DNA of 64,000 nt, from assembly GCA_028865345.1 (NCBI GenBank), contig JAGWKL010000001.1, positions 235,098 through 299,097 of the forward strand, given 5' to 3'. Origin of the DNA: Candidatus Omnitrophota bacterium (lineage in GTDB: Bacteria > Omnitrophota > Gorgyraeia > Zapsychrales > Fredricksoniimonadaceae). Shown piece by piece: positions 3,491-60,964 of this stretch. The translations under genes and the position numbers were made by a program. Within the stretch, counting starts at the first letter, position 1, and each line of letters begins with the position of its first letter. The notes beneath the pieces are model-generated. The model was not told the origin of the DNA. It did not search any database and was given only the letters and a program-made list of their open reading frames with translations.

Positions 3491-6400
3491 TTATCCACCG
3501 TGCGCTGGTTTGGGTTTCATGACCATATAATAAATAACCGGTATGGCCGTACGTGACAAGAAGGTCGATGCGATCTCCCCTGCCATAAGTGACAATGCCA
3601 GGCCCTGGAAGATCGGGTCAAAAAGGATGACTGATGCCCCGACAAAGACCGCCATGGCCGTCAGCAGCATGGGCCTGAAACGCACCGCACCGGCGTCTAT
3701 CACCGCTTCTTCCAGGGACATCCCTTCCCTGAGACGCAACTGGATAAAATCCACCAGGATAATGGAATTCTGCACCACGATCCCTGCGCCCGCAATCATG
3801 CCTATCATGGAGGTGGCGGTAAAAAAGATCCCTGTCATCCAATGGGCCGGCAGGATCCCCACGAGCGTCAAGGGGATCGGCATCATGATGATCATCGGCA
3901 CTTTAAAGGACTTAAACCATCCCACAACCAGAACATAGATCAAGACCAGTACAATTGCAAAAGCAATGCCTAAGTCCCTGAAAACCTCATAGGTGATCTG
4001 CCACTCTCCGTCGAATTTCAAGGCCCAGTGATTTTGATTGGGCGGCATGCCGGTCCAATAGATCTTCAATGATTTCTGGCCTTCCGGATGCGACGGGAGA
4101 GGAAGTTTCTCGAAAGCCTTTTGCAAATCAAAAAGCACGTAGACAGGGCTTTCAAACGGCCCTGCCACATCGCCGAAAACATAACCGACCCTCATGAGGT
4201 TCTTATGAAAGATCGGTTTGGACTTAAGCCTGTCTTGTACCCTGACTAAGTCCTTAAGCGGTATAGGAATTCCGGTATTCGACAATAATGTCATCCCCAA
4301 AATACTGTTCAGGTCCCTGCGTTTATTTTCCGGCAGGCGCACGACGATTTCCACAGGTTCATATTCATTGGAAAGGTGCGCCAGGCCGACATCCCTGCCT
4401 GCCAAGGCCGTTGAAATGGTCGCAGCAATCGCATTGGGCGCAATACCGTTGAGACTGGCCTTTTGACGGTCAACGACCAACCGGAACAGTTTTTCATTGC
4501 CTGAGGGAGAAGGAGTAGTGATGTCCGTGACGCTGGGGTTTGATGACATCACCCCCTCAACCTGTTGGGCCAGCTTGTCGATCCCGGCCCTATTGGGACC
4601 GTAGATCTCCATGACGAGCGTGGATAATACCGGCGGGCCAGGCGGAACTTCAGCCACTTGGGACTGCCCGCCGTAGCGTGCAACAATTTCGTGGATCTTG
4701 GGGCGGACGGACTTGGCAATATCGTGGCTTTGCCGCCGCCGCTCGGCTTTAGGTAAAAGATTGACCTGCAGGTCCGCCTGGTTGGTGCCGTGGCGAAGAT
4801 AATAATGCCTGACGAGCCCGTTGAAATTATACGGCGCGCTCGTTCCCACATAAGCTTCGATGTTGTCCACCTCCGGGACTGTCTGTAAATACTTAGCGAT
4901 CTCTCCGATGACATCGTTTGTGGTTGCCAACGATGTCCCCTGCGGCATGTCCAGAACCACCTGAAACTCATTTTTATTGTCAAAGGGCAGCATTTTCACC
5001 TTCACCCATTTAAGAGGTATCAATGAAACAGAAAGCAACAAAAGAACGCTGATCACAATAAGAAAAACGGCGCGGACCCGGGAATTGTAAATTAACGGCT
5101 TCATGTAGGAACGGTAGACCCGGGTCAGGAAATCCTCCCGGCTGTCATGGCCTTTCATGTCCCCTTTTTCGAAGGCGCGCTTGAGGATAATGGTCGCGGC
5201 CCATGGTGTCGCCATAAAAGCCATCAGCGTGGAAAAGAAAATGGCGAGGCTTGATCCGATGGGGATAGGACGCATGTACGGGCCCATCAGCCCCCCGACA
5301 AAGGCCATGGGCAAAATGGCCGAGATGACCGTCAGGGCAGCCAGGATGAGCGGGCTTTGGACCTCATTGACAGCGCCGATGACAATATCCAAAAATTGAC
5401 GCCCCGCATTTTTCGCCAGACGCAGGTGCCTGACGATGTTTTCCACATTGACTATGGGGCCGTCGACAAGGATACCGATGGAAAAAATCAGTGCGAAAAG
5501 TGTTATTCTGTTGAGGGTAAAGCCGATCCAGTAAAAAGCAGCCAGGGTAAGGGACAACGTCAGAGGAATGGTCACCGCCACAATGCCCGCTTCCTTCCAT
5601 CCCAGGACCATGGCAATGATAAGGGCCACCCCTCCCACCGCCAGCCCCATATGGAAAAGAAGTTCGTTGGATTTGTCCGTCGCTGTTTTTCCATAGTTGC
5701 GCGTGACCTTCATGTGCACGTCCGATGGTATCAGGGCCCCTTTTAAAGTGTCCACTTTCTTGAGGACACGATCGCACAACCACGCGGCATTGGCGCCCTT
5801 CCTCTTGGATATGCTCAATGTCACTGCCTCAAAGGGCCCCTTAGACGGATATTCCCTTTGATCGCCGAAACGGATATTCACATCATGTTCCTGAGTATCG
5901 GGCCCGTCGACAATCCGGGCGACGTCTTTTAAATAAACGATACGCCCAACCGATGTGCCGACAACAAGATTTTCCAGGTCTGCTTTGGACGTGATAAATG
6001 AGTCAGCCTCGACGCCTATGACGTCAGGCGTTGTTTGCAGGTGTCCGGCCGGCATTTTGACGTTGGAAGACTCGATGAGCCGTTCAATGCTCAACGGGTC
6101 GATCAGATGCTCTGAAAGCTTGGCCCCATCAAGCAGGACCTGAAAGGTGCGCTTATGGCCGCCTATGATCCGGGTATCTGAAATATCCGGTATGGCGTTG
6201 ACCTCCTGCTGTATCGAGGCAACCACGCGGCGCAAAGTCTCCGTATTTTCCTTACCGGAATAAAAGGTCAGGGCCAGGATCGGCACATCATCGATGGAAT
6301 GGTATTTGATCAGGGGTTGTGATGCGCCGGGCGGCAAAAAGTCCTGGTTCGCAAAGACCTTCGTGTATAATTTCGTCAATGACTGCTCGACATCCTCCCC

Positions 6401-26114: not shown

Positions 26115-26198
26115 AAGCCCTCCTTAGTTGAATGTCTGATAGAAGTTTTTCATTCGAACTTTAACAAAAAAAGATGAATAGAAGATGAAGTTACAATA

Positions 26199-26627
26199 TT
26201 AGTCCCCATGATGTCCGTGTCCGTAATGTTCCTGTTCATGACCATCAGAGTCTTGATATTCATGCCTGCGGCGCCAGCCTCGATGATGGATAACCCGCCA
26301 ACCGCCCCCGATATGCTGATAATAAATGCCATGGGACACAAAATAGACCTGGCCGTCAATCATGACCCGTTCAGAATCCGGAGGAGTCTCATTAATGACG
26401 GCCCCGACCGGCGCTTCCACAGAAACATAACTTCCCGGAGCCCCTGTATAAAAAACGCCGGCGTGATAATAATAGGGGGTGCCTCCAACAATGATTTCCC
26501 TGTACCGTTCAGGTCGACGGTGTCCCCACCATCCGAAATCGAAAAACCAGGCATGGGCCGGCGCTGGTTGACCGACTAAAACCATCAGAAAGAAACAAAC
26601 CCCCGACAAAGTCCTTTTCATGACCAC
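26199..26627 (-). CDS. Secreted hypothetical protein with Tyr/Gly-rich repeats and His-rich C-terminal tail
   Basis: Signal peptide 'GVCFFLMVLVGQPAPAHA'; two 'G..YY..G.FY' repeats; C-terminus 'HEYQDSDGHEQEHYGHGHHGD'. Confidence 0.5.
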   Translation of the reverse strand: MVMKRTLSGVCFFLMVLVGQPAPAHAWFFDFGWWGHRRPERYREIIVGGTPYYYHAGVFYTGAPGSYVSVEAPVGAVINETPPDSERVMIDGQVYFVSHGIYYQHIGGGWRVIHHRGWRRRHEYQDSDGHEQEHYGHGHHGD

Positions 26628-50465: not shown

Positions 50466-51671
50466 TCATAAGGAGGTCTTTTTTGCAACAATGACGATGC
50501 CGGATGTGGTAAGCACAAAACGCTGGCGGTCCAGGGCCGGATAAAAGCCGATCTTTGTCCCCGCGGGGATGTTCACATTCTTATCGATAATGGCCCCCTG
50601 GATCTGGGCCCCCTTGCCGATGGTGACGCTGTCCATGATCACGGAATTCCTGATCAACACCCCGTCCCTGATGACCACGTTGTTCGAAACCACCGAATGT
50701 TCGACCCTTGCACTTTCCAGCACGCACCCGCCGGCGATCAGGGAATCGACCACGGAGCCCGGCGTCTTGCCGGTCGTGTAGACCCTTAAAGGGGTATACC
50801 GGTGATGGCTGGTGCGCAAAGGCCAGGACTTATCGTCAAGGCTGAATTTAGGCTTCGGCCCGCAGAGGTCCATATTGGCCTGGTAATAGGAGTCCCGGGT
50901 CCCGATGTCCCTCCAATAAGGAGATATTTCATTTTCTTTGGCAAAGTCATAGGCAAAGACCTTTAATTTCTTGGCCAGCATCTGCGGGATGATGTTCTTG
51001 CCGAAATCGTGGCCCGAATCGGTCCTTGCGGCATCGTCGGCCAGTTCTTTCTTAAGGGTCTCGGTGTTGAACAAATAAATCCCCATGGAACCGAAAATCT
51101 CGTTGGGACTATGGGGAATAGTCCTTGGCTTCTCGGGCTTTTCCTGGAAACCTTCGACCATGTTCTGCTTGTTGACCTCCACCACCCCGAAATGGATGGA
51201 ATCGCTTTTGGGCATGGTGACGCAGGCCACCGTCATGTCGGCGCCTTTGTCCACATGGTAGTCGATCAGCTTGCGGTAATCCATTTTATATACGTGGTCC
51301 CCGGCGAGGATCAACACCAGGCTGGGGTCATAATCGCCCACCATGTTCAAATTCTGGTAAATGGCGTCCGCGGTGCCGCGGTACCAGTCGCTGGAAATGC
51401 GCTGCTGGGCAGGGACCACGTCGATAAATTCTCCCAGCTGGTTGGAATAGATGTTCCATCCTTCCAAAATGTGGCGCTGAAGGGAAAATGATTTGTACTG
51501 GGTAAGAAGGAAAATACGCCTGAGGCCGGAATTGACGCAATTGGAAAGCGCAAAATCAACGATGCGGTAAATGCCCCCGAATGGCACGGCGGGCTTGGCC
51601 CTGTCGCGGGTCAAAGGATCCAGGCGCTCGCCCTTGCCTCCGGCCAACACAAAAGTCAAAACTTCACGCAT
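50466..51671 (-). CDS. glgC: Glucose-1-phosphate adenylyltransferase
   Basis: 'LAGGKGERLDPLTRDRAKPAVPFGG' plus C-terminal hexapeptide beta-helix. Confidence 0.9.
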   Translation of the reverse strand: MREVLTFVLAGGKGERLDPLTRDRAKPAVPFGGIYRIVDFALSNCVNSGLRRIFLLTQYKSFSLQRHILEGWNIYSNQLGEFIDVVPAQQRISSDWYRGTADAIYQNLNMVGDYDPSLVLILAGDHVYKMDYRKLIDYHVDKGADMTVACVTMPKSDSIHFGVVEVNKQNMVEGFQEKPEKPRTIPHSPNEIFGSMGIYLFNTETLKKELADDAARTDSGHDFGKNIIPQMLAKKLKVFAYDFAKENEISPYWRDIGTRDSYYQANMDLCGPKPKFSLDDKSWPLRTSHHRYTPLRVYTTGKTPGSVVDSLIAGGCVLESARVEHSVVSNNVVIRDGVLIRNSVIMDSVTIGKGAQIQGAIIDKNVNIPAGTKIGFYPALDRQRFVLTTSGIVIVAKKTSL

Positions 51672-51682
51672 TCAAACTTGCT

Positions 51683-53839
51683 TCACTTTCTTCTTTTAAA
51701 ATATTGTTTATTGATAAAAACCTTCTTTTTTTTCCCATTTATAATATCATGAATCTTTTGAACATCAACTTTATCTTCTAGCCCCAATTTTTTGGCTTTA
51801 TCGATCATTGCCAGCGCCTTTTTGTCCTTGCCCTCCTTGGCCAGACAACGGGCCAGCCCGAAATATCCCTCGATGTTCCTGGGGAAAATGGACAGCACCC
51901 GCCGGTACTCGTCAATGGCCCCGTCATAGTGTTTAAGTTCCTCATAGGCATGCGCCAGCCCAAGAATGGAAGGCAGATCGCCGGTATAGATGGCCGCCAA
52001 CCGGTAATTCACGAACGCCTTTTTATATTCGTGCCTCTTGGTGTAAATTTTGGCCAGAATATGGTAGGCCTGCCCGTAATCCGGGGCCACGGCGAGCGCT
52101 TCCCTGGCCTCCCGGATCGCCGCCTCATCGGCGTCCAGGGTCTCGAGAATATAAGCCCTATTGACAAAGGGAAACGGCGTCACGAGCTTTGTCCCTAATT
52201 TATAAAGGTTCATGGGCTTAGGGACCCAATGATGGATGTCGACGGAAAACTTCCTGATAAAAGGCATATTATACGGCGTCTTTTTAAGAAAAATGACCCC
52301 ATCATAGTCCAGATAAACAATGGACCAATCCTTAAAAGAATGAAACATTTTAAGGCAGGCCGGCGGGATCTCCTGATGGGCATTATTGAGAAACGCCCCG
52401 GTGATATTGTCCTTGCGTTCGAATTGCTCAAAGACCTTGGCATTGCCCTGCATCCATATCTTCTGGTAATTTTCGAAAAATTTGGCCCCGTACTCTTCGG
52501 TGCGCCCGTCGATAAAGACCTTGACGGCGGGGTCCACCCTGCCGACTAAATAGGCGCCGGAATTAAAATCGTTGAAAAAATTTCCCTTGATCTTTTGGGC
52601 CACCAGGAAATTCACCGCTTCATAGGGATAAACCCGCTTGGAGACGCCGAAAAATTCGCTCTTGCGCCCATAGGTGTCAAAATCGAAATAACCGTTGCTG
52701 GACATCTGTATGCCGAAATTCATCATCCATAACATGAGTATTATTTCTATGATAATAACGGTCAGATATTTGAATTTAGGAGATGAAAAGTGCAAAGGCA
52801 CCACGTTTTTCCAGGAAATGGAAATGGCATTGACCATCAGGACCATATAGGCCGCCACCGCAAAAAACACCATGTTGCGGATGGCCGCCAGCGAAAATGC
52901 CAGGAAAATGGCCCACACCAAAAGACTGCTGACGTCGATCTTGCGGCGGTTAAAGACAAAGCTCAGGAAGGAAACGACGATCAGGGCCTTGTAATACATC
53001 CACATGTTGGTAAAAATGTTCTGGGCGGTGATGGGCCTTTGCAATTCGACGATGTGCTTAAAAAATATCTTATTGCTTCCCGATAAGCTGAAAAAGACCT
53101 TCACCGGGTACCAGGCGCCCTTGAAGGTGTCCGGATTGACGCAGCAGGCCAGGATCAGAAGGGGAAACAATATTTTAAGCGACCGGTATTCCCCGTCGGT
53201 CAGACGGCCTGTCGTGTTCCATTCATACGGCATGGGCACGCGGCGTTTGAGGAATTCCGACAGGATGGCCACCGCCACCAGCAATGGCCCGAAAAAGAAA
53301 AAGCCGTGCGTGTTGGCCCATATGATCTGCAGCCCCACCAGCGCATAAAGGGCCCAGCGTTTATTGATGTGCAGGGAAAGGACATAGATGTACAGCACGA
53401 AGAACAGGATGCTGAAAATATCCGGGCGGATGGTAAAGCGGGTCTGGTAAACCATCAAGACCATGAGCAATGACACCACGGACAGCCACTGGCGTTCGCG
53501 GCTATAGCCCAAAAACAATAAAAACAGGAAGGTGGCACCCACTACCAGCGACTGCATGGAGATAAGCCCGTTGAAACCGTAGGCCCGCTGTACCAGGTAG
53601 ACCAGCACCTGGAACAGCCACTCATGATTGACCCAAGGTTTGCCGGCGATAGTGCAGGAAAGCACGTCGTAATGAGGGACAAAACCATGCTGCCAGATCC
53701 ACCAGCCCATCCGCAGGTGCAGCCAGAGATCCAGGTCCTTGATCTCAAGACTGGAGCTGAAGGTGACGAGGCAAAAAAGCAGGCCGATGGCCAGCCAGCC
53801 GAAGGTGACGCTCAGGTGTCTCCAGAACCGTTCGCTCAT
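51683..53839 (-). CDS. Polytopic membrane protein (about 12 TM) with C-terminal TPR repeats; GT-C-like / TMTC-like architecture
   Basis: N-terminal TM core with first-loop motif 'DLDLWLHL...PWVNHEWLFQVLVY'; C-terminal 'AYHILAKIYTKRHEYKKAF...' TPRs; paralog of 55303..56829. Confidence 0.55.
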   Translation of the reverse strand: MSERFWRHLSVTFGWLAIGLLFCLVTFSSSLEIKDLDLWLHLRMGWWIWQHGFVPHYDVLSCTIAGKPWVNHEWLFQVLVYLVQRAYGFNGLISMQSLVVGATFLFLLFLGYSRERQWLSVVSLLMVLMVYQTRFTIRPDIFSILFFVLYIYVLSLHINKRWALYALVGLQIIWANTHGFFFFGPLLVAVAILSEFLKRRVPMPYEWNTTGRLTDGEYRSLKILFPLLILACCVNPDTFKGAWYPVKVFFSLSGSNKIFFKHIVELQRPITAQNIFTNMWMYYKALIVVSFLSFVFNRRKIDVSSLLVWAIFLAFSLAAIRNMVFFAVAAYMVLMVNAISISWKNVVPLHFSSPKFKYLTVIIIEIILMLWMMNFGIQMSSNGYFDFDTYGRKSEFFGVSKRVYPYEAVNFLVAQKIKGNFFNDFNSGAYLVGRVDPAVKVFIDGRTEEYGAKFFENYQKIWMQGNAKVFEQFERKDNITGAFLNNAHQEIPPACLKMFHSFKDWSIVYLDYDGVIFLKKTPYNMPFIRKFSVDIHHWVPKPMNLYKLGTKLVTPFPFVNRAYILETLDADEAAIREAREALAVAPDYGQAYHILAKIYTKRHEYKKAFVNYRLAAIYTGDLPSILGLAHAYEELKHYDGAIDEYRRVLSIFPRNIEGYFGLARCLAKEGKDKKALAMIDKAKKLGLEDKVDVQKIHDIINGKKKKVFINKQYFKRRK

Positions 53840-56829: not shown

Positions 56830-57881
56830 ACCGGATCAAACGCGTCCCTCAGGGAGTCTCCGACGACATTAAAACACATCACCGCTATAAAAATGAACAG
56901 CCCGGGAAGCAATATCCACGGCGCAAAGATGACGGGCACGATATGCATGGCATCGGAAAGCAGGTTCCCCCAGCTGGGAACAGGGTCCTGGATCCCCAAA
57001 CCCACCACACTTAAGCCCGCTTCCGCCAGGATGTACGACGAGACCGTAAGCATCAGGGTGGCCATGGAATAGGAAATCGTCTGGGGCAGGATATGTTTGC
57101 AAATAATGACGATATCCGGCACCCCCAGCGTTTTCGCGGCCAGCACATAGTCCCGCTCGCGCAACGAAAGGGCCATGCCGCGGATGATGCGCGCCAGGGA
57201 CGCCCAGCCGATCAGGGACAAAATAACGACAACGCTCAAGTACACCTGCACGGAATTGAAATTTTCCGGCACCGCGGCCCTTAAGGCCAGCATCAGGTAA
57301 AATCCCGGGATCATCATGAACATCTCGCAGATCCTCATCAAAACCCCGTCCACCCACCCGCCGTAATACCCGGCAATGCCGCCGACCAAAAGCCCGATGG
57401 CAAAGGACAGGGCCACCCCCAATAACCCGATGGACAAAGAGATCCTGGCCCCGTACCAGATGCGCGAAAACATGTCGCGACCGCGCGCATCCGCGCCCCA
57501 AATATAAAGGCGGCCGGGACGATCGACGCTAAAGAGCCTTCCGTGTTTAAAAAATTGCAGGGGATATTTTACGGCGCGGTCGACCACATACACACGCCGA
57601 TGCACGGCATCAAAGGTCATGGTACGCTTATAAACAAAAGGACGCACCCAATGCCCGTGGTCCATGAACTCGATCGCCGTCGGAGGGCAATAAGAGAAAT
57701 TCCGGTCCTCGTCCTGATAGGAATACGGGCATATAAAATCAGCGCCAAGGGCCATGGCGTACAAAAAGACCAGGCACCAAAGACAAAGCATGGCCACACG
57801 GCTGGCACGAAAGGCGGCAAAGGCCGATTGGGTGCGGCTTCGATGTTTAACGGCGCTGTTCATATCTGATCCGCGGGTCAA
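56826..57881 (-). CDS. Peptide/nickel ABC transporter permease (DppC/OppC-like, with OppC_N extension)
   Basis: 6 TM, EAA-loop region, N-terminal periplasmic extension. Confidence 0.85.
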   Translation of the reverse strand: MTRGSDMNSAVKHRSRTQSAFAAFRASRVAMLCLWCLVFLYAMALGADFICPYSYQDEDRNFSYCPPTAIEFMDHGHWVRPFVYKRTMTFDAVHRRVYVVDRAVKYPLQFFKHGRLFSVDRPGRLYIWGADARGRDMFSRIWYGARISLSIGLLGVALSFAIGLLVGGIAGYYGGWVDGVLMRICEMFMMIPGFYLMLALRAAVPENFNSVQVYLSVVVILSLIGWASLARIIRGMALSLRERDYVLAAKTLGVPDIVIICKHILPQTISYSMATLMLTVSSYILAEAGLSVVGLGIQDPVPSWGNLLSDAMHIVPVIFAPWILLPGLFIFIAVMCFNVVGDSLRDAFDPV

Positions 57882-58821
57882 CCACAGTCAATAAAATATC
57901 GGCCAGGACATTGCCGATGACCAAAAGCACTCCTGCCAGTAACGTGCTGCTCATGACAAGATACACGTCCTTGGCGCGTACCGCCGTCAACAGCAAGGAG
58001 CCCAATCCGGGCCAGCTGCAGACGATCTCGATCAAGGCCGCCCCGCTTAAAAGTGAGGCAAATTCATACCCCAATAAAGTGACCAAAGGATTAAAGGCGT
58101 TGCGCAGGGCATGGCGGTAAATCACCGTGCCTTCCGGCAGGCCGCGGGCCCGGGCCGCTAAAATATACTGTTGGCGCAAAACACCCAGCATATTTCCGCG
58201 CATGATCCGCTGTAAGGACGCCATGGAAGACAGGGAAAGGACGCCGGCCGGGATCACCAGATGCAGCGCCGTATCCTTGATTTTGCCGAGGAGATTAAAG
58301 TCGTCGTAATGCGGACTGTGCATGCCGCCCAAGGGAAGCACTCCCCATCGGCTGGCCGCATACAGGACCAGCACCGCTAAAAAGAAACCCGGCGTTGAAA
58401 AGGCCGCGAACGAAAATACGGAAAGGGCCCGGTCCACCCACTGGTTCCGGCGCAATGCGGCCCAGATCCCCAACGGGATGCCGATCCCCCATGTCAAAAT
58501 CAAACTGGTAAACGACAGGATAAAGGTATTGAACAAGCGGCTGCCCAGGACATGGGTGACAGGGACATTGTAATAAAAGGAATACCCCCATTCCCCGTGC
58601 AGGATATTGATGAGCCAATGCCAGTATTGAAGCACAAAGGGATCATTGAGATGATAAAGCCGCTCGTAACGGTCGACCATGCTTTGCGAAATTTGAGGGT
58701 TCAGGCGCAGGCTTTCAAAAAAGCTGCCCGGGGTGGCATGCATGAGCCAGAAGGTAAAAAAGCTCACGGCCAGCAACAGCAGGATCGTCGAGAACAAGCG
58801 TTGGAGGATATGTTTAAGCAT
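57847..58821 (-). CDS. Peptide/nickel ABC transporter permease (DppB/OppB-like)
   Basis: 'MLKHILQRL...' BPD_transp_1 fold, 324 aa. Confidence 0.85.
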   Translation of the reverse strand: MLKHILQRLFSTILLLLAVSFFTFWLMHATPGSFFESLRLNPQISQSMVDRYERLYHLNDPFVLQYWHWLINILHGEWGYSFYYNVPVTHVLGSRLFNTFILSFTSLILTWGIGIPLGIWAALRRNQWVDRALSVFSFAAFSTPGFFLAVLVLYAASRWGVLPLGGMHSPHYDDFNLLGKIKDTALHLVIPAGVLSLSSMASLQRIMRGNMLGVLRQQYILAARARGLPEGTVIYRHALRNAFNPLVTLLGYEFASLLSGAALIEIVCSWPGLGSLLLTAVRAKDVYLVMSSTLLAGVLLVIGNVLADILLTVVDPRIRYEQRR

Positions 58822-58851
58822 ATTTACTTGTCACTGATAGGTATCCCTGCT

Positions 58852-59220
58852 TGTCATTCTGAGGCCCGAAGGGCCGAAGAATCTCTTATAGAATAGACTT
58901 ATATAAATCAATCCACCCTGGATTAAATTTTTCTATTAGCTCGACTTTTTTACGGCGCAACCAACCTTTGATCTGTTTCTCACGTGTTATTGCATTGACA
59001 ATGTCTTCGAAAGTTTCATAGTAAACTAATTTATGGGTTTTATATTTTCTTGTAAAACCTTCTACTAAGCCTGTCTTATGCTCATAAACCCTTTTGACTA
59101 AATCACTAGTTATACCAACATACAGAACCTTGTCGTTCTTATTAGTCAGAATATAAACATATCCTCTTTTATCAATCATGTTGTTCTTTTAGAGATCCTT
59201 CGCTTCGCTCAGGATGACTA
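58852..59220. mobile_element. About 370 bp mini-element: GIY-YIG ORF bounded by about 30-bp imperfect terminal inverted repeats
   Basis: Left 58853..58886 'TGTCATTCTGAGgccCGAAGggcCGAAGAATCTCT' vs reverse complement of right 59191..59219 'TAGTCATCCTGAGCGAAGCGAAGGATCTCT'; 27/29 core matches plus two 3-nt insertions that create a GGCCCGAAGGGCC palindrome; inserted between the SBP and permease genes of the ABC operon. Confidence 0.4.
58886..59179 (-). CDS. GIY-YIG nuclease superfamily protein (UPF0213/YhbQ-like, stand-alone)
   Basis: 'GYVYILTNKNDKVLYVGITSDLVKRVYEHK' GIY...YIG motifs, 97 aa. Confidence 0.8.
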   Translation of the reverse strand: MIDKRGYVYILTNKNDKVLYVGITSDLVKRVYEHKTGLVEGFTRKYKTHKLVYYETFEDIVNAITREKQIKGWLRRKKVELIEKFNPGWIDLYKSIL

Positions 59221-59239
59221 ATAACGTAAACCAAAATGA

Positions 59240-60964
59240 TTAATGATACGAACCAGAATGATTAATGATGTAAACCTCCTCAGGTTCCGGGAACGGGCCG
59301 CCGTTGGCCGACGGTTTCAGGTTGCCGAATTTATTGCGCACGGCGTACATGTCCGCGTCCAGGACCGTATAAATGACCGGCAGTTCGTCAGCCACAATGC
59401 GCTGCCACTCGTCGTAAAGGACTTTACGTTTGCTCTCATTAAGCTCTTGGGCGCCCTGGTCGAAAATTTCATCGATACGCTTTTCCCACGGGGTCGCAGG
59501 TTTAGCTTCATGCGGGTCCCACAAATGCAGGCCTCCGGACGAATACCAGACGTTCTGGCCGAAATGCGGCTCCACCCCTCCGGTCAGCCCTATCATCACC
59601 ATGTCCCAATCAAAGGAGTCCATCAGTTTATTGACCAGGGTGTTGAATTCCACGGGCACCAAATTGACCTTCATGCCCAGCCTTTCCAGATCAGAACGGA
59701 TGATGGCCGCCATCTGCTGGCGGCCATTGGCGCCGGTCGTGGCCGTATCAAAATTAAATTCCACCACATGGCCTTTCGAGTCTACAAGGGTCCTCCCGTG
59801 GTCGATATATCTAAAACCGGCATTCTCGAGGATCCTGCGCGCTTCCTTTAAATTGTAATCATAGGTCTTCACGTCAGGATCATAAAAAAAACCGCTGCTG
59901 GGGCTCATGGGGCCGTTTTGAGGGTAACCGAAGCCGTTGTCGATGATCTCGATGATCCTCTTTTTATCAATGGCGTGCGCCACGGCCCGGCGGAAGCTCA
60001 GATTGGTAAACCAGGACAATTTGACCGGGTCCACAAAAGGTCTATGCGTATCGGGGTTGATGCCGCGATTCTGGTTGAAAACCACAAAATTACTGTCATA
60101 CGCGGGCCCGGCGTCATAAATATGAAAATTTTTGCCCTTTTCCATGGGCTCGAGCAAAGGATAATCCTCCCCGGAAACGGCAATCGCGTCCAACTCCCCG
60201 TCGATAAATTTCAACAGTTGGGCCTGCGGGTCCGGAATGATCACATAAATGATCTTGTCCAGGTAGGGAAGCCTGTCGCCCTGTGGGGACCTTTTCCAAT
60301 AATAAGGATTGCGCGTGAATACCAGCCTCTCGCCGGGCCGGTACTCGCTTAAGCAAAACGGGCCTGTGCCCACGATCAAACGTGGTGGCGTATCGATGCC
60401 CCAGGTGAAGGGGAATTTCTTTTCTTTGACCGCCTGCCACAAGCAGTGCCTGGGCATGATGGGCTGGGACAGGCTGCGCAAAAAGGGCGCGAATTTGACC
60501 GGCAGGACAAAACGCACCGTGTAACGGTCTATTTTTTCGACCTTGATGGGCTTGCCGTCGATGGTGAGGACATCCTTGGACGAGGACGGGATGCCGGGAT
60601 TATAGATCAGGTCATTGAACGTGAATACCACGTCATCCGCGCTGAAAGGCACCCCGTCGGACCACCGGACGTCTTTTCTTAAATGAAAGGTCCACGTCAA
60701 GCCGTCGGGGCTGATCGTCCAGGAGCGGGCCAGTTGGGGAACGACTTTTAAGGTATACGGGTCTGCGGTGGTCAAGCCTTCGAAAATGAGCGACGTCATT
60801 GCAGCCGAATTGGCGTCCGTGGAAACAATTTCATTGAAGGTTTTAGGATCGGAAGACGCGGCCAAGACCAGACTGCCGCCGTAACGGCTTGCGGCGGCAT
60901 GGGCATTGGAGATCATGCCCGCGCATAAAAAACAAAAAATAAAGAATAATTTATTCTTCGGCAT
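59240..60964 (-). CDS. ABC transporter substrate-binding protein, family 5 (peptide/nickel)
   Basis: Signal peptide, 574 aa, SBP_bac_5-like; first gene of the ABC operon. Confidence 0.85.
   Translation of the reverse strand: MPKNKLFFIFCFLCAGMISNAHAAASRYGGSLVLAASSDPKTFNEIVSTDANSAAMTSLIFEGLTTADPYTLKVVPQLARSWTISPDGLTWTFHLRKDVRWSDGVPFSADDVVFTFNDLIYNPGIPSSSKDVLTIDGKPIKVEKIDRYTVRFVLPVKFAPFLRSLSQPIMPRHCLWQAVKEKKFPFTWGIDTPPRLIVGTGPFCLSEYRPGERLVFTRNPYYWKRSPQGDRLPYLDKIIYVIIPDPQAQLLKFIDGELDAIAVSGEDYPLLEPMEKGKNFHIYDAGPAYDSNFVVFNQNRGINPDTHRPFVDPVKLSWFTNLSFRRAVAHAIDKKRIIEIIDNGFGYPQNGPMSPSSGFFYDPDVKTYDYNLKEARRILENAGFRYIDHGRTLVDSKGHVVEFNFDTATTGANGRQQMAAIIRSDLERLGMKVNLVPVEFNTLVNKLMDSFDWDMVMIGLTGGVEPHFGQNVWYSSGGLHLWDPHEAKPATPWEKRIDEIFDQGAQELNESKRKVLYDEWQRIVADELPVIYTVLDADMYAVRNKFGNLKPSANGGPFPEPEEVYIINHSGSYH

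What the first reader, a model, noticed from the sequence alone, without database searches (positions are those of the whole stretch)
58852..59220. GIY-YIG gene framed by about 30-bp terminal inverted repeats, inserted inside an operon: possible miniature mobile element
The 97-aa stand-alone GIY-YIG ORF sits in the only sizeable intergenic gap of the ABC operon. It is bracketed precisely at its stop and about 12 nt before its start by imperfect inverted repeats (TCATyCTGAG-CGAAG-CGAAG-rATCTCT). The left copy carries two 3-nt insertions that generate a GGCCCGAAGGGCC hairpin. The element is about 370 bp with no transposase. Stand-alone UPF0213 GIY-YIG genes are usually considered housekeeping; a TIR-bounded copy suggests self-mobility or a homing-like insertion.
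Basis: seen in the sequence. Interest (0 to 1): 0.6.

Follow-up and report, generated by a model that had tools for sequence, protein, structure and literature searches.

The report
Ssn nuclease gene with hairpin ends
This is a 366-bp cassette, a tiny single-stranded-DNA nuclease gene of the Ssn family (described in 2025) bracketed by its own hairpin recognition motifs, that was dropped into an ABC-transporter operon; it is a known kind, and related genomes show the same site empty, occupied, decaying or scarred.

Summary
A 97-aa GIY-YIG gene (58886-59179, minus strand; GC 0.31 against about 0.53 for its neighbours) is bracketed by inverted copies of a roughly 30-nt motif. The repeat alignment scores 32; shuffles average 14.9, and 0 of 2000 reach 32.

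The "TIRs" are not transposase ends.

This architecture is published. Chenal et al. 2025 (PMC11893778) describe Ssn ssDNA-specific nucleases flanked by their NTS/SRM hairpins. The hairpins belong to the CGTC-tagged REPs of Di Nocera 2013 (PMC3733652).

The window protein is 48% identical, without gaps, to the Neisseria SsnA ortholog. It keeps the catalytic Y, Y and E at the same spacing. It is not close to UPF0213.

New here is an allelic series at the orthologous junction in related Omnitrophota. There are empty sites with a 1-nt spacer (the majority), full cassettes, internally deleted ssn genes and SRM-only footprints.

That shows a discrete insertion with gain, decay and loss. Movement driven by the element's own nuclease remains unproven: no target-site duplication and no recent copies were found. 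Verdict: new member of a known kind.

The parts
59184..59219 (-). Upstream Ssn-related motif (SRM). Tag AGTC, stem 1 ATCCT/AGGAT, GA/GA internal loop, inner stem GC/GC with a GAA loop, then C. It is followed by the repeat extension TCTCTAAAAGAAC. The tag points away from the gene.
   Evidence: The same motif lies upstream of homologous genes in other phyla.
58886..59179 (-). ssn gene: a 97-aa single-domain GIY-YIG nuclease of the Ssn type. The catalytic-residue equivalents are Y9, Y20 and E67.
   Evidence: Pfam PF01541, E 1.5e-18. 48% identity over 90 aa without gaps to the Neisseria gonorrhoeae ssnA-locus protein. GC 0.31.
58852..58893 (+). Downstream SRM in inverted orientation. Tag TGTC, stem 1 ATTCT/AGAAT, GA/GA, inner stem lengthened to GGCCC/GGGCC with a GAA loop, then C. 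The repeat extension TCTCTTATAGAA overlaps the ssn stop codon.
   Evidence: (I1)
59214..59276 (.). 22-nt tandem repeat, 2.9 copies. The unit is the outer flank plus the first 8-9 nt of the upstream SRM (GGTTYRY-RTYATTARTCATYYT). It now encodes the altered C-terminal tail of the SBP: IINHSGSYH instead of IKK.
   Evidence: TRF, the repeat finder D1, sequence, native tails of orthologs
58822..58851 (.). Spacer between the downstream SRM and the permease ATG. It ends in AAGTAAAT-ATG, which matches the ancestral junction AAGTAAT-ATG of the empty site. The rest (AAGCAGGGATACCTATCAGTGAC) is absent from the empty site.
59240..60964 (-). ABC substrate-binding protein gene (SBP_bac_5). Its 3' end was remodelled by the insertion.
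57847..58821 (-). ABC permease gene. In the empty allele it sits 1 nt from the SBP stop codon; here it is 418 nt away.

Best explanation
The region is an SRM-ssn-SRM cassette. It carries a gene for an Ssn-family nuclease, a 97-aa single-domain GIY-YIG enzyme that cuts single-stranded DNA at specific sites. The gene is bracketed, tags outward, by two copies of its cognate hairpin recognition motif. The cassette arrived as one unit at the SBP/permease junction of an Omnitrophota ABC operon.

Shown here:
- Family assignment of the protein.
- The hairpin nature and covariation of the motif.
- The association between gene and motif across phyla.
- Insertion relative to an empty orthologous site, with decay and footprint alleles.

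Inferred from the published biochemistry of Neisseria and Wolbachia homologs:
- When DNA is single-stranded (replication, transformation, or possibly cruciform extrusion), Ssn binds the hairpin on the tagged strand only.
- It nicks about 3 nt 5' of the tag. For this cassette that is just outside the element on each strand, near 59222/59223 on the minus strand and 58848/58849 on the plus strand.

Inferred and unproven:
- These nicks, processed by host repair and recombination, promote gain and loss of the cassette at allelic sites. That would be a homing-like or gene-conversion cycle, not classical cut-and-paste.
- In other genomes the same activity would seed gene-less head-to-head hairpin doublets.

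In this genome the cassette looks like a selfish passenger rather than a housekeeping function.
For: Protein:
- GIY-YIG, E 1.5e-18.
- 43/90 identical, no gaps, E 1e-30 to the protein encoded at the N. gonorrhoeae locus that sits among 7 exact NTS copies and fits the published Y6/Y17/E64 numbering.
- The UPF0213 structures match only at E 2e-5 and 1.5e-3.

Motif:
- 330 GTCAT-tagged hairpins in 88 loci against 12.8 in shuffles.
- 72 of 78 homologous genes have a hairpin within 150 nt, 51 have one on both sides, and 42 have the tags-outward layout.
- Non-circular test: 293 of 320 matches to GTCAT-N3-GA..GA-N3-ATC are fully paired at the free positions.
- Formal count: 96.3% of cells paired and 57 double-sided changes against 16.1 +/- 5.1 in shuffles, 0 of 500 as high. 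Sliding the partners drops pairing to 46% or less.

Insertion:
- L082 is an empty site.
- L081, a strain with 98% identical SBP, has the same cassette with a roughly 125-bp deletion that removes E67.
- L083 and L084 carry the cassette at this site: L084 a full 97-aa ssn, L083 an 87-aa called ORF that starts at LTNKNN and so lacks the first GIY tyrosine. L088 has ssn cut to 59 aa, L086 a 33-nt SRM footprint, L087 a CGTCAT scar.
- Native SBP tails predominate, including in distant orthologs. Occupied alleles are scattered in the SBP tree.

Composition: ssn is lower in GC than its flanks in 80 of 81 loci.

Literature: Ssn biochemistry and the NTS-ssnA-NTS layout in PMC11893778.
Against: - No biochemical data exist for this protein or for this SRM variant.
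- The published SRM search expression does not match either window copy, and it covers only 6 of my 330 hairpins.
- No target-site duplication or conserved target.
- No near-identical copies at different sites in one genome.
- Only two SRMs in 64 kb, so there is no sign of activity on other sites here.
- One cut per strand does not by itself excise or copy anything.
- ssn divergence between occupied alleles (76-80%) is similar to SBP divergence (73-78%). That fits an old insertion with repeated loss as well as it fits repeated gain.
- The NJ tree is poorly resolved.
- Folding energies of the single hairpins are modest, with z-scores of -2.2 and -1.2.
Confidence: 0.75

Rival explanations
1. Domesticated host system. 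Ssn is a host ssDNA 'restriction' factor that limits recombination of incoming DNA carrying SRMs, as shown for Neisseria. The flanking SRMs are autoregulatory or recognition sites, and the cassette is not itself mobile. Presence and absence would reflect ordinary deletion and recombination.
For: This is the function shown experimentally for N. meningitidis SsnA (PMC11893778). SRMs are overwhelmingly solo: only 1 of 78 metagenome sites and 2 of 59 viral-contig sites with the exact 25-nt variant have an ssn homolog within 200 nt. ssn divergence tracks host-gene divergence.
Against: Only the two flanking SRMs occur in 64 kb, so there is nothing else nearby to act on. The gene is broken in a strain with 98% identical SBP and in L088. 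Most orthologous operons lack it. GC is 22 points below the host. It splits a translationally coupled gene pair.
Confidence: 0.2
2. Classical non-autonomous TIR element (MITE-like with cargo), moved in trans by a transposase encoded elsewhere. The GIY-YIG gene would be a passenger.
For: Inverted terminal repeats of about 35-40 nt. Gene-less head-to-head doublets exist: 46 of 69 adjacent pairs in metagenome loci.
Against: No target-site duplication. The repeat is a covarying hairpin rather than a conserved linear end. The gene-motif association holds across phyla with this one gene family. Di Nocera 2013 found no transposase associated with CGTC repeats. The encoded protein's homologs bind exactly this kind of motif.
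Confidence: 0.04
3. RNA-level elements. The hairpins act in the operon mRNA as stabilisers or attenuators, like REPs between malE and malF, and their symmetry around the gene is incidental.
For: The cassette is co-oriented with the operon. No terminator-like site was predicted. The SBP/permease junction is where E. coli REPs act (own knowledge: Newbury et al. 1987).
Against: The unpaired 5' tag GTC and the 3' C are conserved and the orientation is inverted, so the two copies would be different RNAs. Published SsnA does not bind RNA. No Rfam family matches. A side effect on mRNA stability is still possible.
Confidence: 0.05

Closest known systems
Ssn family of site-specific ssDNA endonucleases with NTS/SRM hairpins (Chenal et al., Nat Commun 2025, PMC11893778; CDD cd10448)
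   Same: A single-domain GIY-YIG protein of about 94-97 aa. Catalytic Y/Y/E at identical spacing. 48% identity to the Neisseria ortholog. The gene is flanked on both sides by oriented hairpin motifs with a GTC tag, a stem starting with AT and a C after the palindrome.
   Different: The hairpin is a two-tier variant (5-bp stem, GA/GA internal loop, 2-5-bp inner stem, GAA loop) that the published SRM expression does not match. There is no genome-wide expansion of the motif in the 64 kb seen. The host is an Omnitrophota MAG. Activity is untested.
CGTC-tagged REPs (Di Nocera et al., BMC Genomics 2013, PMC3733652), including Neisseria dRS3 and Rickettsia RPE-4/-6
   Same: A (C/T)GTC tag, a stem beginning with AT, an unpaired 3' tail starting with C, and head-to-head dimers as the predominant arrangement.
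   Different: That paper describes 8-9-bp continuous stems, 4-5-nt loops and a CCA tail, and reported no dedicated enzyme. Here the stem is interrupted by GA/GA, the loop is 3 nt, the tail is CTC, and the dimer encloses a nuclease gene.
RAYT/REPIN systems (Nunvar 2010, PMC2817692; Bertels and Rainey 2011, PMC3116915)
   Same: It works alike in layout. A small enzyme gene is flanked by inverted copies of the tagged hairpin it recognises, and gene-less inverted doublets are dispersed elsewhere.
   Different: The enzyme is a GIY-YIG nuclease, not an HUH/Y1 transposase. It has no known strand-transfer activity. RAYTs are mostly vertically inherited single copies, whereas this cassette is patchy and decaying.
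IS200/IS605 TnpA with subterminal hairpins
   Same: Recognition of ssDNA hairpins and a very small element size.
   Different: IS200/IS605 cleaves both ends on the same strand and rejoins them through a covalent tyrosine intermediate. Here the motifs are on opposite strands and the enzyme is a hydrolytic nuclease.
Free-standing GIY-YIG homing endonucleases (phage T4 Seg proteins, I-TevI relatives)
   Same: A GIY-YIG gene inserted between conserved genes, presence/absence polymorphism at one site, and an apparent cycle of invasion, decay and loss.
   Different: There is no DNA-binding domain, no evidence that the empty allele is cleaved, and the published substrate is ssDNA next to a hairpin that the empty site lacks.
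UPF0213 / YhbQ stand-alone GIY-YIG proteins
   Same: Size and fold class.
   Different: Only a distant match (E 2e-5 to BH0048).

Membership tests
Ssn (cd10448) ssDNA nucleases with SRM hairpins | Single-domain GIY-YIG protein of about 90-100 aa | tested here: met
   97 aa. PF01541 covers residues 6-78 with E 1.5e-18, and there is no other domain.
Ssn (cd10448) ssDNA nucleases with SRM hairpins | Homology to characterised Neisseria SsnA (the paper's criterion: E < 1e-10 over more than 75% of the length) | tested here: met
   tblastn E 1e-20 with 93% coverage. Pairwise, 48% identity over 90 aa without gaps, E 1e-30, to the N. gonorrhoeae protein encoded among 7 exact NTS copies. The paper's stricter cut-off of 60% identity is not met. 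N. meningitidis CAX49033.1 itself was not available for comparison.
Ssn (cd10448) ssDNA nucleases with SRM hairpins | Catalytic residues equivalent to Y6, Y17 and E64 of SsnA | tested here: met
   Y9, Y20 and E67 have the same 11- and 47-residue spacing and align to Y, Y and E.
Ssn (cd10448) ssDNA nucleases with SRM hairpins | Gene flanked by oriented hairpin motifs (three conserved nt 5' of the palindrome, C immediately 3') | tested here: met
   GTC tag and 3' C in both copies, tags outward. Covariation across homologous loci.
Ssn (cd10448) ssDNA nucleases with SRM hairpins | Match to the published SRM search expression HGTCWYN(0-2)YYVSBRHN(0-5)WNVSBRGN(0-2)RNCYNB | tested here: not met
   0 matches in the window. 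The expression covers 6 of 330 GTCAT-hairpins in the related loci. This is a search heuristic, not a definition; the paper describes SRMs as 20-50-nt hairpins.
Ssn (cd10448) ssDNA nucleases with SRM hairpins | ssDNA-only, strand-specific cleavage a few nt 5' of the motif | not testable with these tools
   Needs purified protein and oligonucleotide substrates.
CGTC-tagged REPs | Terminal CGTC/TGTC tag, stem starting with AT, short unpaired 3' tail, head-to-head dimers | tested here: met
   The left copy has TGTC and the right copy AGTC (A at -1 is rare, 3 of 90). Both stems start with AT. Arrangement is head-to-head.
CGTC-tagged REPs | Continuous 8-9-bp stem, 4-5-nt loop, CCA tail | tested here: not met
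   5-bp stem, then GA/GA, then a 2- or 5-bp stem with a 3-nt loop and a CTC tail. 282 of 330 related hairpins share GA/GA.
Insertion sequence / autonomous DNA transposon | Encodes a transposase (DDE, HUH, serine or tyrosine recombinase) | tested here: not met
   The only ORF is a GIY-YIG nuclease.
Insertion sequence / autonomous DNA transposon | Target-site duplication and multiple near-identical copies | tested here: not met
   No TSD in 45 cassettes. One copy in the window. Paralogs within one MAG are 67-82% identical.
Free-standing homing endonuclease | Nuclease gene present or absent at one site between conserved genes | tested here: met
   Empty, occupied, decayed and scarred alleles at the SBP/permease junction.
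Free-standing homing endonuclease | Separate DNA-binding domain and cleavage of the empty allele | tested here: not met
   Single 97-aa domain. Cleavage of the empty allele cannot be tested here, and the empty site has no SRM.
UPF0213 / YhbQ | Close sequence similarity to UPF0213 members | tested here: not met
   Best PDB matches are BH0048 at E 2e-5 and EF2693 at E 1.5e-3, against 48% identity to the Neisseria SsnA ortholog.

The most novel reading that the evidence does not exclude
SRM-ssn-SRM cassettes of about 350-400 bp are autonomous selfish elements, among the smallest protein-coding mobile units known. They would propagate by a homing-like cycle driven by hairpin-directed ssDNA nicking just outside each end. 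The Omnitrophota SBP/permease junction would then capture that cycle in all its stages: empty, intact, internally deleted and footprint. It would also give the 'orphan' CGTC-type REPs their missing mobilising enzyme. A second, unrelated nuclease gene (DUF559) with its own 42-nt hairpin-containing inverted repeats at the very same junction hints that 'small nuclease plus hairpin ends' is a general design.
Probability: 0.35. Interest if true: 0.7.

Novelty: new member of a known kind. Interest (0 to 1): 0.35.

Why it matters
The Ssn paper raised the idea that NTS-ssnA-NTS is or was a mobile element but did not test it. This locus gives comparative evidence that the cassette behaves as a discrete insertion: one orthologous site is seen empty, occupied, decaying and scarred.

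It also shows that a large clade of Ssn homologs uses a GA/GA two-tier hairpin that the published search pattern misses. The family's motif census is therefore probably an underestimate.

For annotation, such ~97-aa 'GIY-YIG nuclease family proteins' with GTCAT-tagged hairpins should be called Ssn cassettes, not UPF0213 housekeeping genes. Peptide tails such as '...RHPERSEGS' at gene ends mark read-through into an SRM.

Tried and rejected
- Rfam, at gathering and at permissive thresholds: nothing relevant.
- Hammerhead-like reading of CTGA..GAA: rejected because the CUGA is not conserved in covarying variants.
- PADLOC and NCBIfam: no specific family.
- Full-text search for the motif sequence: only primers.
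- Searches pairing GIY-YIG with REPIN, RAYT or MITE: no paper links them.
- Second GIY-YIG in the window: the weak tblastn hit at 52256-52450 lies antisense inside a 718-aa membrane-protein gene, so it is chance.
- The other two GTCAT-hairpin hits in the window (26184-26242 and 50652-50675) lack the GA/GA architecture of the flanking copies. Scaling the shuffle rate (12.8 hits in 582 kb) gives about 1.4 expected in 64 kb, so I treat them as chance.
- Evidence for intragenomic transposition from three loci of one Syntrophomonadaceae MAG: they are alleles of one region, 95-99.6% identical over 8 kb.
- Strand test by counting G.T against A.C mismatches: 8 against 4, indecisive.
- Phage vehicles: only distant GIY-YIG hits, 41% identity or less.
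- Supplementary files of the Ssn paper are not held, so the SsnA sequence came from a N. gonorrhoeae chromosome that PLSDB labels as a plasmid.
- Target-site logo: nothing conserved beyond Y at -1.

Full report
OBSERVATION

The window is from a Candidatus Omnitrophica MAG: the encoded protein matches P0001 at 100%, on a 305,912-bp contig.

On the minus strand the genes run PGK, TIM, SecG, an SBP_bac_5 substrate-binding protein (59240-60964), a 97-aa ORF (58886-59179), two ABC permeases, a 508-aa membrane protein and an ATPase. All junctions overlap except SBP to permease, which is 418 bp and holds the ORF.

The ORF is a GIY-YIG domain protein (PF01541, E 1.5e-18). GC falls to 0.30-0.33 across it, against 0.50-0.58 on either side.

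It is bracketed by inverted copies of one motif:
- plus strand, 58852-58886: TGTCATTCTGAGGCCCGAAGGGCCGAAGAATCTCT
- minus strand, 59191-59219: AGTCATCCTGAGCGAAGCGAAGGATCTCT

The gapped alignment scores 32. Shuffles give mean 14.9 and maximum 28, and 0 of 2000 reach 32. The repeat extends about 12 nt further inward, TCTCTAAAAGAA against TCTCTTATAGAA. No other copy of the motif or of the gene is in the 64 kb.

WHAT THE REPEATS ARE

Each arm is itself a hairpin. It has an unpaired tag (Y)GTC, then a 5-bp stem that starts with AT (ATTCT/AGAAT or ATCCT/AGGAT). A GA/GA internal loop follows, then an inner stem with a GAA loop, and a C right after the stem.

They are compensatory.

I fetched 80 loci encoding homologs (54-69% identical) from Omnitrophota, Legionella, Rickettsiales, Clostridia, Ignavibacteria, Chloroflexota, cyanobacteria and others. 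In 55 of 81 genes the flanks form inverted repeats above the 99th percentile of the null, and they are the same motif.

- A tag-plus-hairpin scan finds 330 such hairpins in 88 loci, against 12.8 in shuffles.
- 72 of 78 genes have one within 150 nt, 51 have one on both sides, and 42 have the tags-outward layout.
- 282 of 330 carry the GA/GA loop.
- In a test that does not require pairing (GTCAT-N3-GA..GA-N3-ATC), 293 of 320 matches pair at all three free positions; shuffled loci give only 2 matches in total.
- On 62 distinct 27-nt instances, 96.3% of cells pair. There are 57 double-sided changes against 16.1 +/- 5.1 in shuffles (0 of 500 as high). Sliding the partners drops pairing to 46% or less.

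The hairpin is therefore under selection as a structure. The tag and the 3' C are under selection as sequence.

WHAT IS KNOWN

Di Nocera et al. 2013 (PMC3733652) defined 'CGTC-tagged REPs'. These have a CGTC or TGTC tag, stems beginning with AT, a short 3' tail and mostly head-to-head dimers. Examples are Neisseria dRS3 and Rickettsia RPE-4/-6. The authors stated that they lack a dedicated transposase.

Chenal et al. 2025 (PMC11893778) then reported the following:
- The 94-aa GIY-YIG protein SsnA of N. meningitidis (CDD cd10448) binds the oriented dRS3 form, NTS (CGTCATTCCCGCGMAVGCGGGAATCYRG), only as ssDNA.
- It cuts a few nucleotides 5' of the motif. It cuts neither the reverse strand, nor dsDNA, nor RNA.
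- The three nucleotides 5' of the palindrome matter most for cutting, and the C just 3' of it matters most for binding.
- 71% of homologs have an Ssn-related motif (SRM) nearby, and 42% have one on both sides.
- NTS-ssnA-NTS looks like an insertion sequence and resembles RAYT/REP. They suggest domestication but do not test mobility.

No later paper on this was found in the library.

MEMBERSHIP

PLSDB holds N. gonorrhoeae chromosomes labelled as plasmids. The window protein hits one at E 1e-20. That locus (L089) carries 7 exact NTS copies in 3.3 kb, and its protein fits the published Y6/Y17/E64 numbering.

Pairwise, the window protein is 43/90 identical to it with no gaps (E 1e-30). Y9, Y20 and E67 align to those residues.

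The published SRM search expression matches neither window copy, and it covers only 6 of my 330 hairpins. This clade uses a two-tier GA/GA variant that the heuristic misses.

I file the locus as a member of the Ssn/SRM family with a variant motif. Activity is untested.

IS IT AN INSERTION?

SBP orthologs led to syntenic operons in related Omnitrophota.

| Locus | SBP identity to window | State of the junction |
|---|---|---|
| L082 | 81-82% | Empty: ...GAGGAGGTTTATATTAAGAAGTAAT|ATG, 1-nt spacer, no gene, no hairpin |
| L081 | 98% | Same cassette, same flanks; ~125-bp deletion from mid-gene to the stop leaves 78 aa without E67 |
| L084 | 73-74% | Full cassette (97-aa ssn) plus gene-less hairpin doublets and half-sites |
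| L083 | 77% | Cassette with an 87-aa called ssn ORF (starts at LTNKNN, upstream ATG out of frame), plus gene-less hairpin doublets and half-sites |
| L088 | 77% | ssn reduced to 59 aa, still between SRMs |
| L086 | 73% | 33-nt remnant only: CGTCATCCTGAGCGTAGCGAAGAATGACG |
| L087 | 72% | CGTCAT scar and a shifted permease start |
| L085 | 75-76% | A different small nuclease gene (DUF559) |

About 110 of 120 SBP orthologs, including distant ones at about 62% identity, end in the native EEIY(I/V)K(K/Q/R). SRM-derived tails such as RHPERSEGS occur in the rest.

Occupied alleles are scattered in a poorly resolved NJ tree, each next to empty ones. L083, L086 and L088 share a right junction. The window and L084 each have their own.

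The ancestral state is therefore empty. The cassette came in as a unit, and it decays and is lost.

Whether there were several gains or one gain with many losses is open. ssn identities of 76-80% are close to SBP identities of 73-78%.

LIMITS ON 'SELF-MOBILITY'

- No target-site duplication and no conserved target beyond Y at -1 in 45 cassettes.
- No recent intragenomic copies. Three loci of one MAG proved to be alleles of one region, and paralogs within one MAG are 67-82% identical.
Only 1 of 78 and 2 of 59 of those sites have an ssn homolog within 200 nt.
- Adjacent hairpins are mostly head-to-head: 46 of 69 pairs in metagenome loci and 18 of 23 in viral contigs.
- So hairpins greatly outnumber genes, as with REPs and RAYTs.
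- The published enzyme cuts only the tagged strand, so the cassette has one predicted nick per strand, just outside each end. That does not by itself excise or copy it.

MOST LIKELY MECHANISM

Shown here: an Ssn-type gene with its cognate hairpins, inserted as a unit.

Inferred from homologs: Ssn binds the extruded hairpin in ssDNA and nicks about 3 nt 5' of the tag.

Inferred and unproven: host repair and recombination at these nicks drives allelic gain and loss in a homing-like way, and elsewhere seeds gene-less doublets.

In this genome there are only two SRMs in 64 kb, a broken copy in a sister strain and a 22-point GC deficit. ssn is also lower in GC than its flanks in 80 of 81 loci. These favour a selfish passenger over a housekeeping or genome-wide regulatory role.

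A side effect on the operon is plausible. The cassette separates a translationally coupled SBP/permease pair and changes the SBP tail from IKK to IINHSGSYH. No terminator-like site is predicted.

VERDICT

It is a new member of a known kind. Two modest additions follow from this work: a motif variant missed by the published pattern, and an allelic series that makes the mobility question testable.

Noticed in passing
window 59214-59276: A 22-nt unit made of the outer flank plus the first 8-9 nt of the upstream SRM is tandemly repeated 2.9 times (73% matches). It now encodes the SBP C-terminal tail. It lies next to the predicted Ssn nick site, and it is identical in the sister strain L081. Its origin is unexplained; slippage or repair at the nick is one possibility.
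   Followed up: partly
L085 4276-4716 (gene at 4326-4703); also L079 2142-2444: At the same SBP/permease junction another Omnitrophota MAG carries a 125-aa DUF559 (PF04480, Vsr-like endonuclease) gene. It is flanked by 42-nt inverted repeats that are 93% complementary, and each arm contains its own hairpin. A 45%-identical DUF559 gene in a Faecousia MAG is also flanked by long inverted repeats that contain hairpins. This may be a second class of cassette built from a small nuclease gene and hairpin ends.
   Followed up: partly
L086 3700-3745; L087 3695-3720: At the orthologous junction L086 keeps only a 33-nt SRM remnant (CGTCATCCTGAGCGTAGCGAAGAATGACG), whose ends GTCAT and ATGAC pair. L087 keeps only CGTCAT and uses a shifted permease start. 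These are candidate excision or deletion footprints.
   Followed up: partly
L084 4580-4765; L083 2545-2690: Downstream of ssn there are gene-less head-to-head SRM doublets that retain the cassette's leader (..GGATCTCTAAAAGAAC..). In L084 the doublet is nested inside a longer palindrome and followed by tandem half-sites (GGATATTTGYTCAGRATGAC, two copies). They look like MITE- or REPIN-like derivatives of the cassette.
   Followed up: no
window 58804-58816 and 59154-59166: A perfect 13-nt inverted repeat (GAGGATATGTTTA / TAAACATATCCTC) links the 5' coding region of the permease with the 5' coding region of ssn. A rough calculation puts the number expected by chance in 700 nt at about 0.004. From reading the L084 junction sequence it does not appear to be conserved there; no search was run. 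Its meaning is unknown.
   Followed up: no
L089 (NZ_CP119142.1 1880219-1883488): PLSDB lists a 2.17-Mb N. gonorrhoeae chromosome as a plasmid. Its ssnA ortholog sits among 7 exact NTS copies. In this strain the nearest ATG is out of frame with the homologous reading frame, so the gene may be frameshifted or use another start.
   Followed up: no
L210-L267 (IMG/VR contigs): The exact 25-nt SRM variant occurs in 58 viral-contig stretches, almost always without an ssn gene nearby. Whether these are true phage genomes carrying SRMs or host fragments was not examined.
   Followed up: no
P0134, P0167, P0171, P0169, P0181 (SBP orthologs): Protein tails such as ..RHPERSEGSLKEQP, ..MRHPERSEE and ..IRH arise when an ORF reads through into an SRM (CGT CAT CCT GAG CG..). 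Such tails could serve as an annotation flag for SRM insertions at gene ends.
   Followed up: partly
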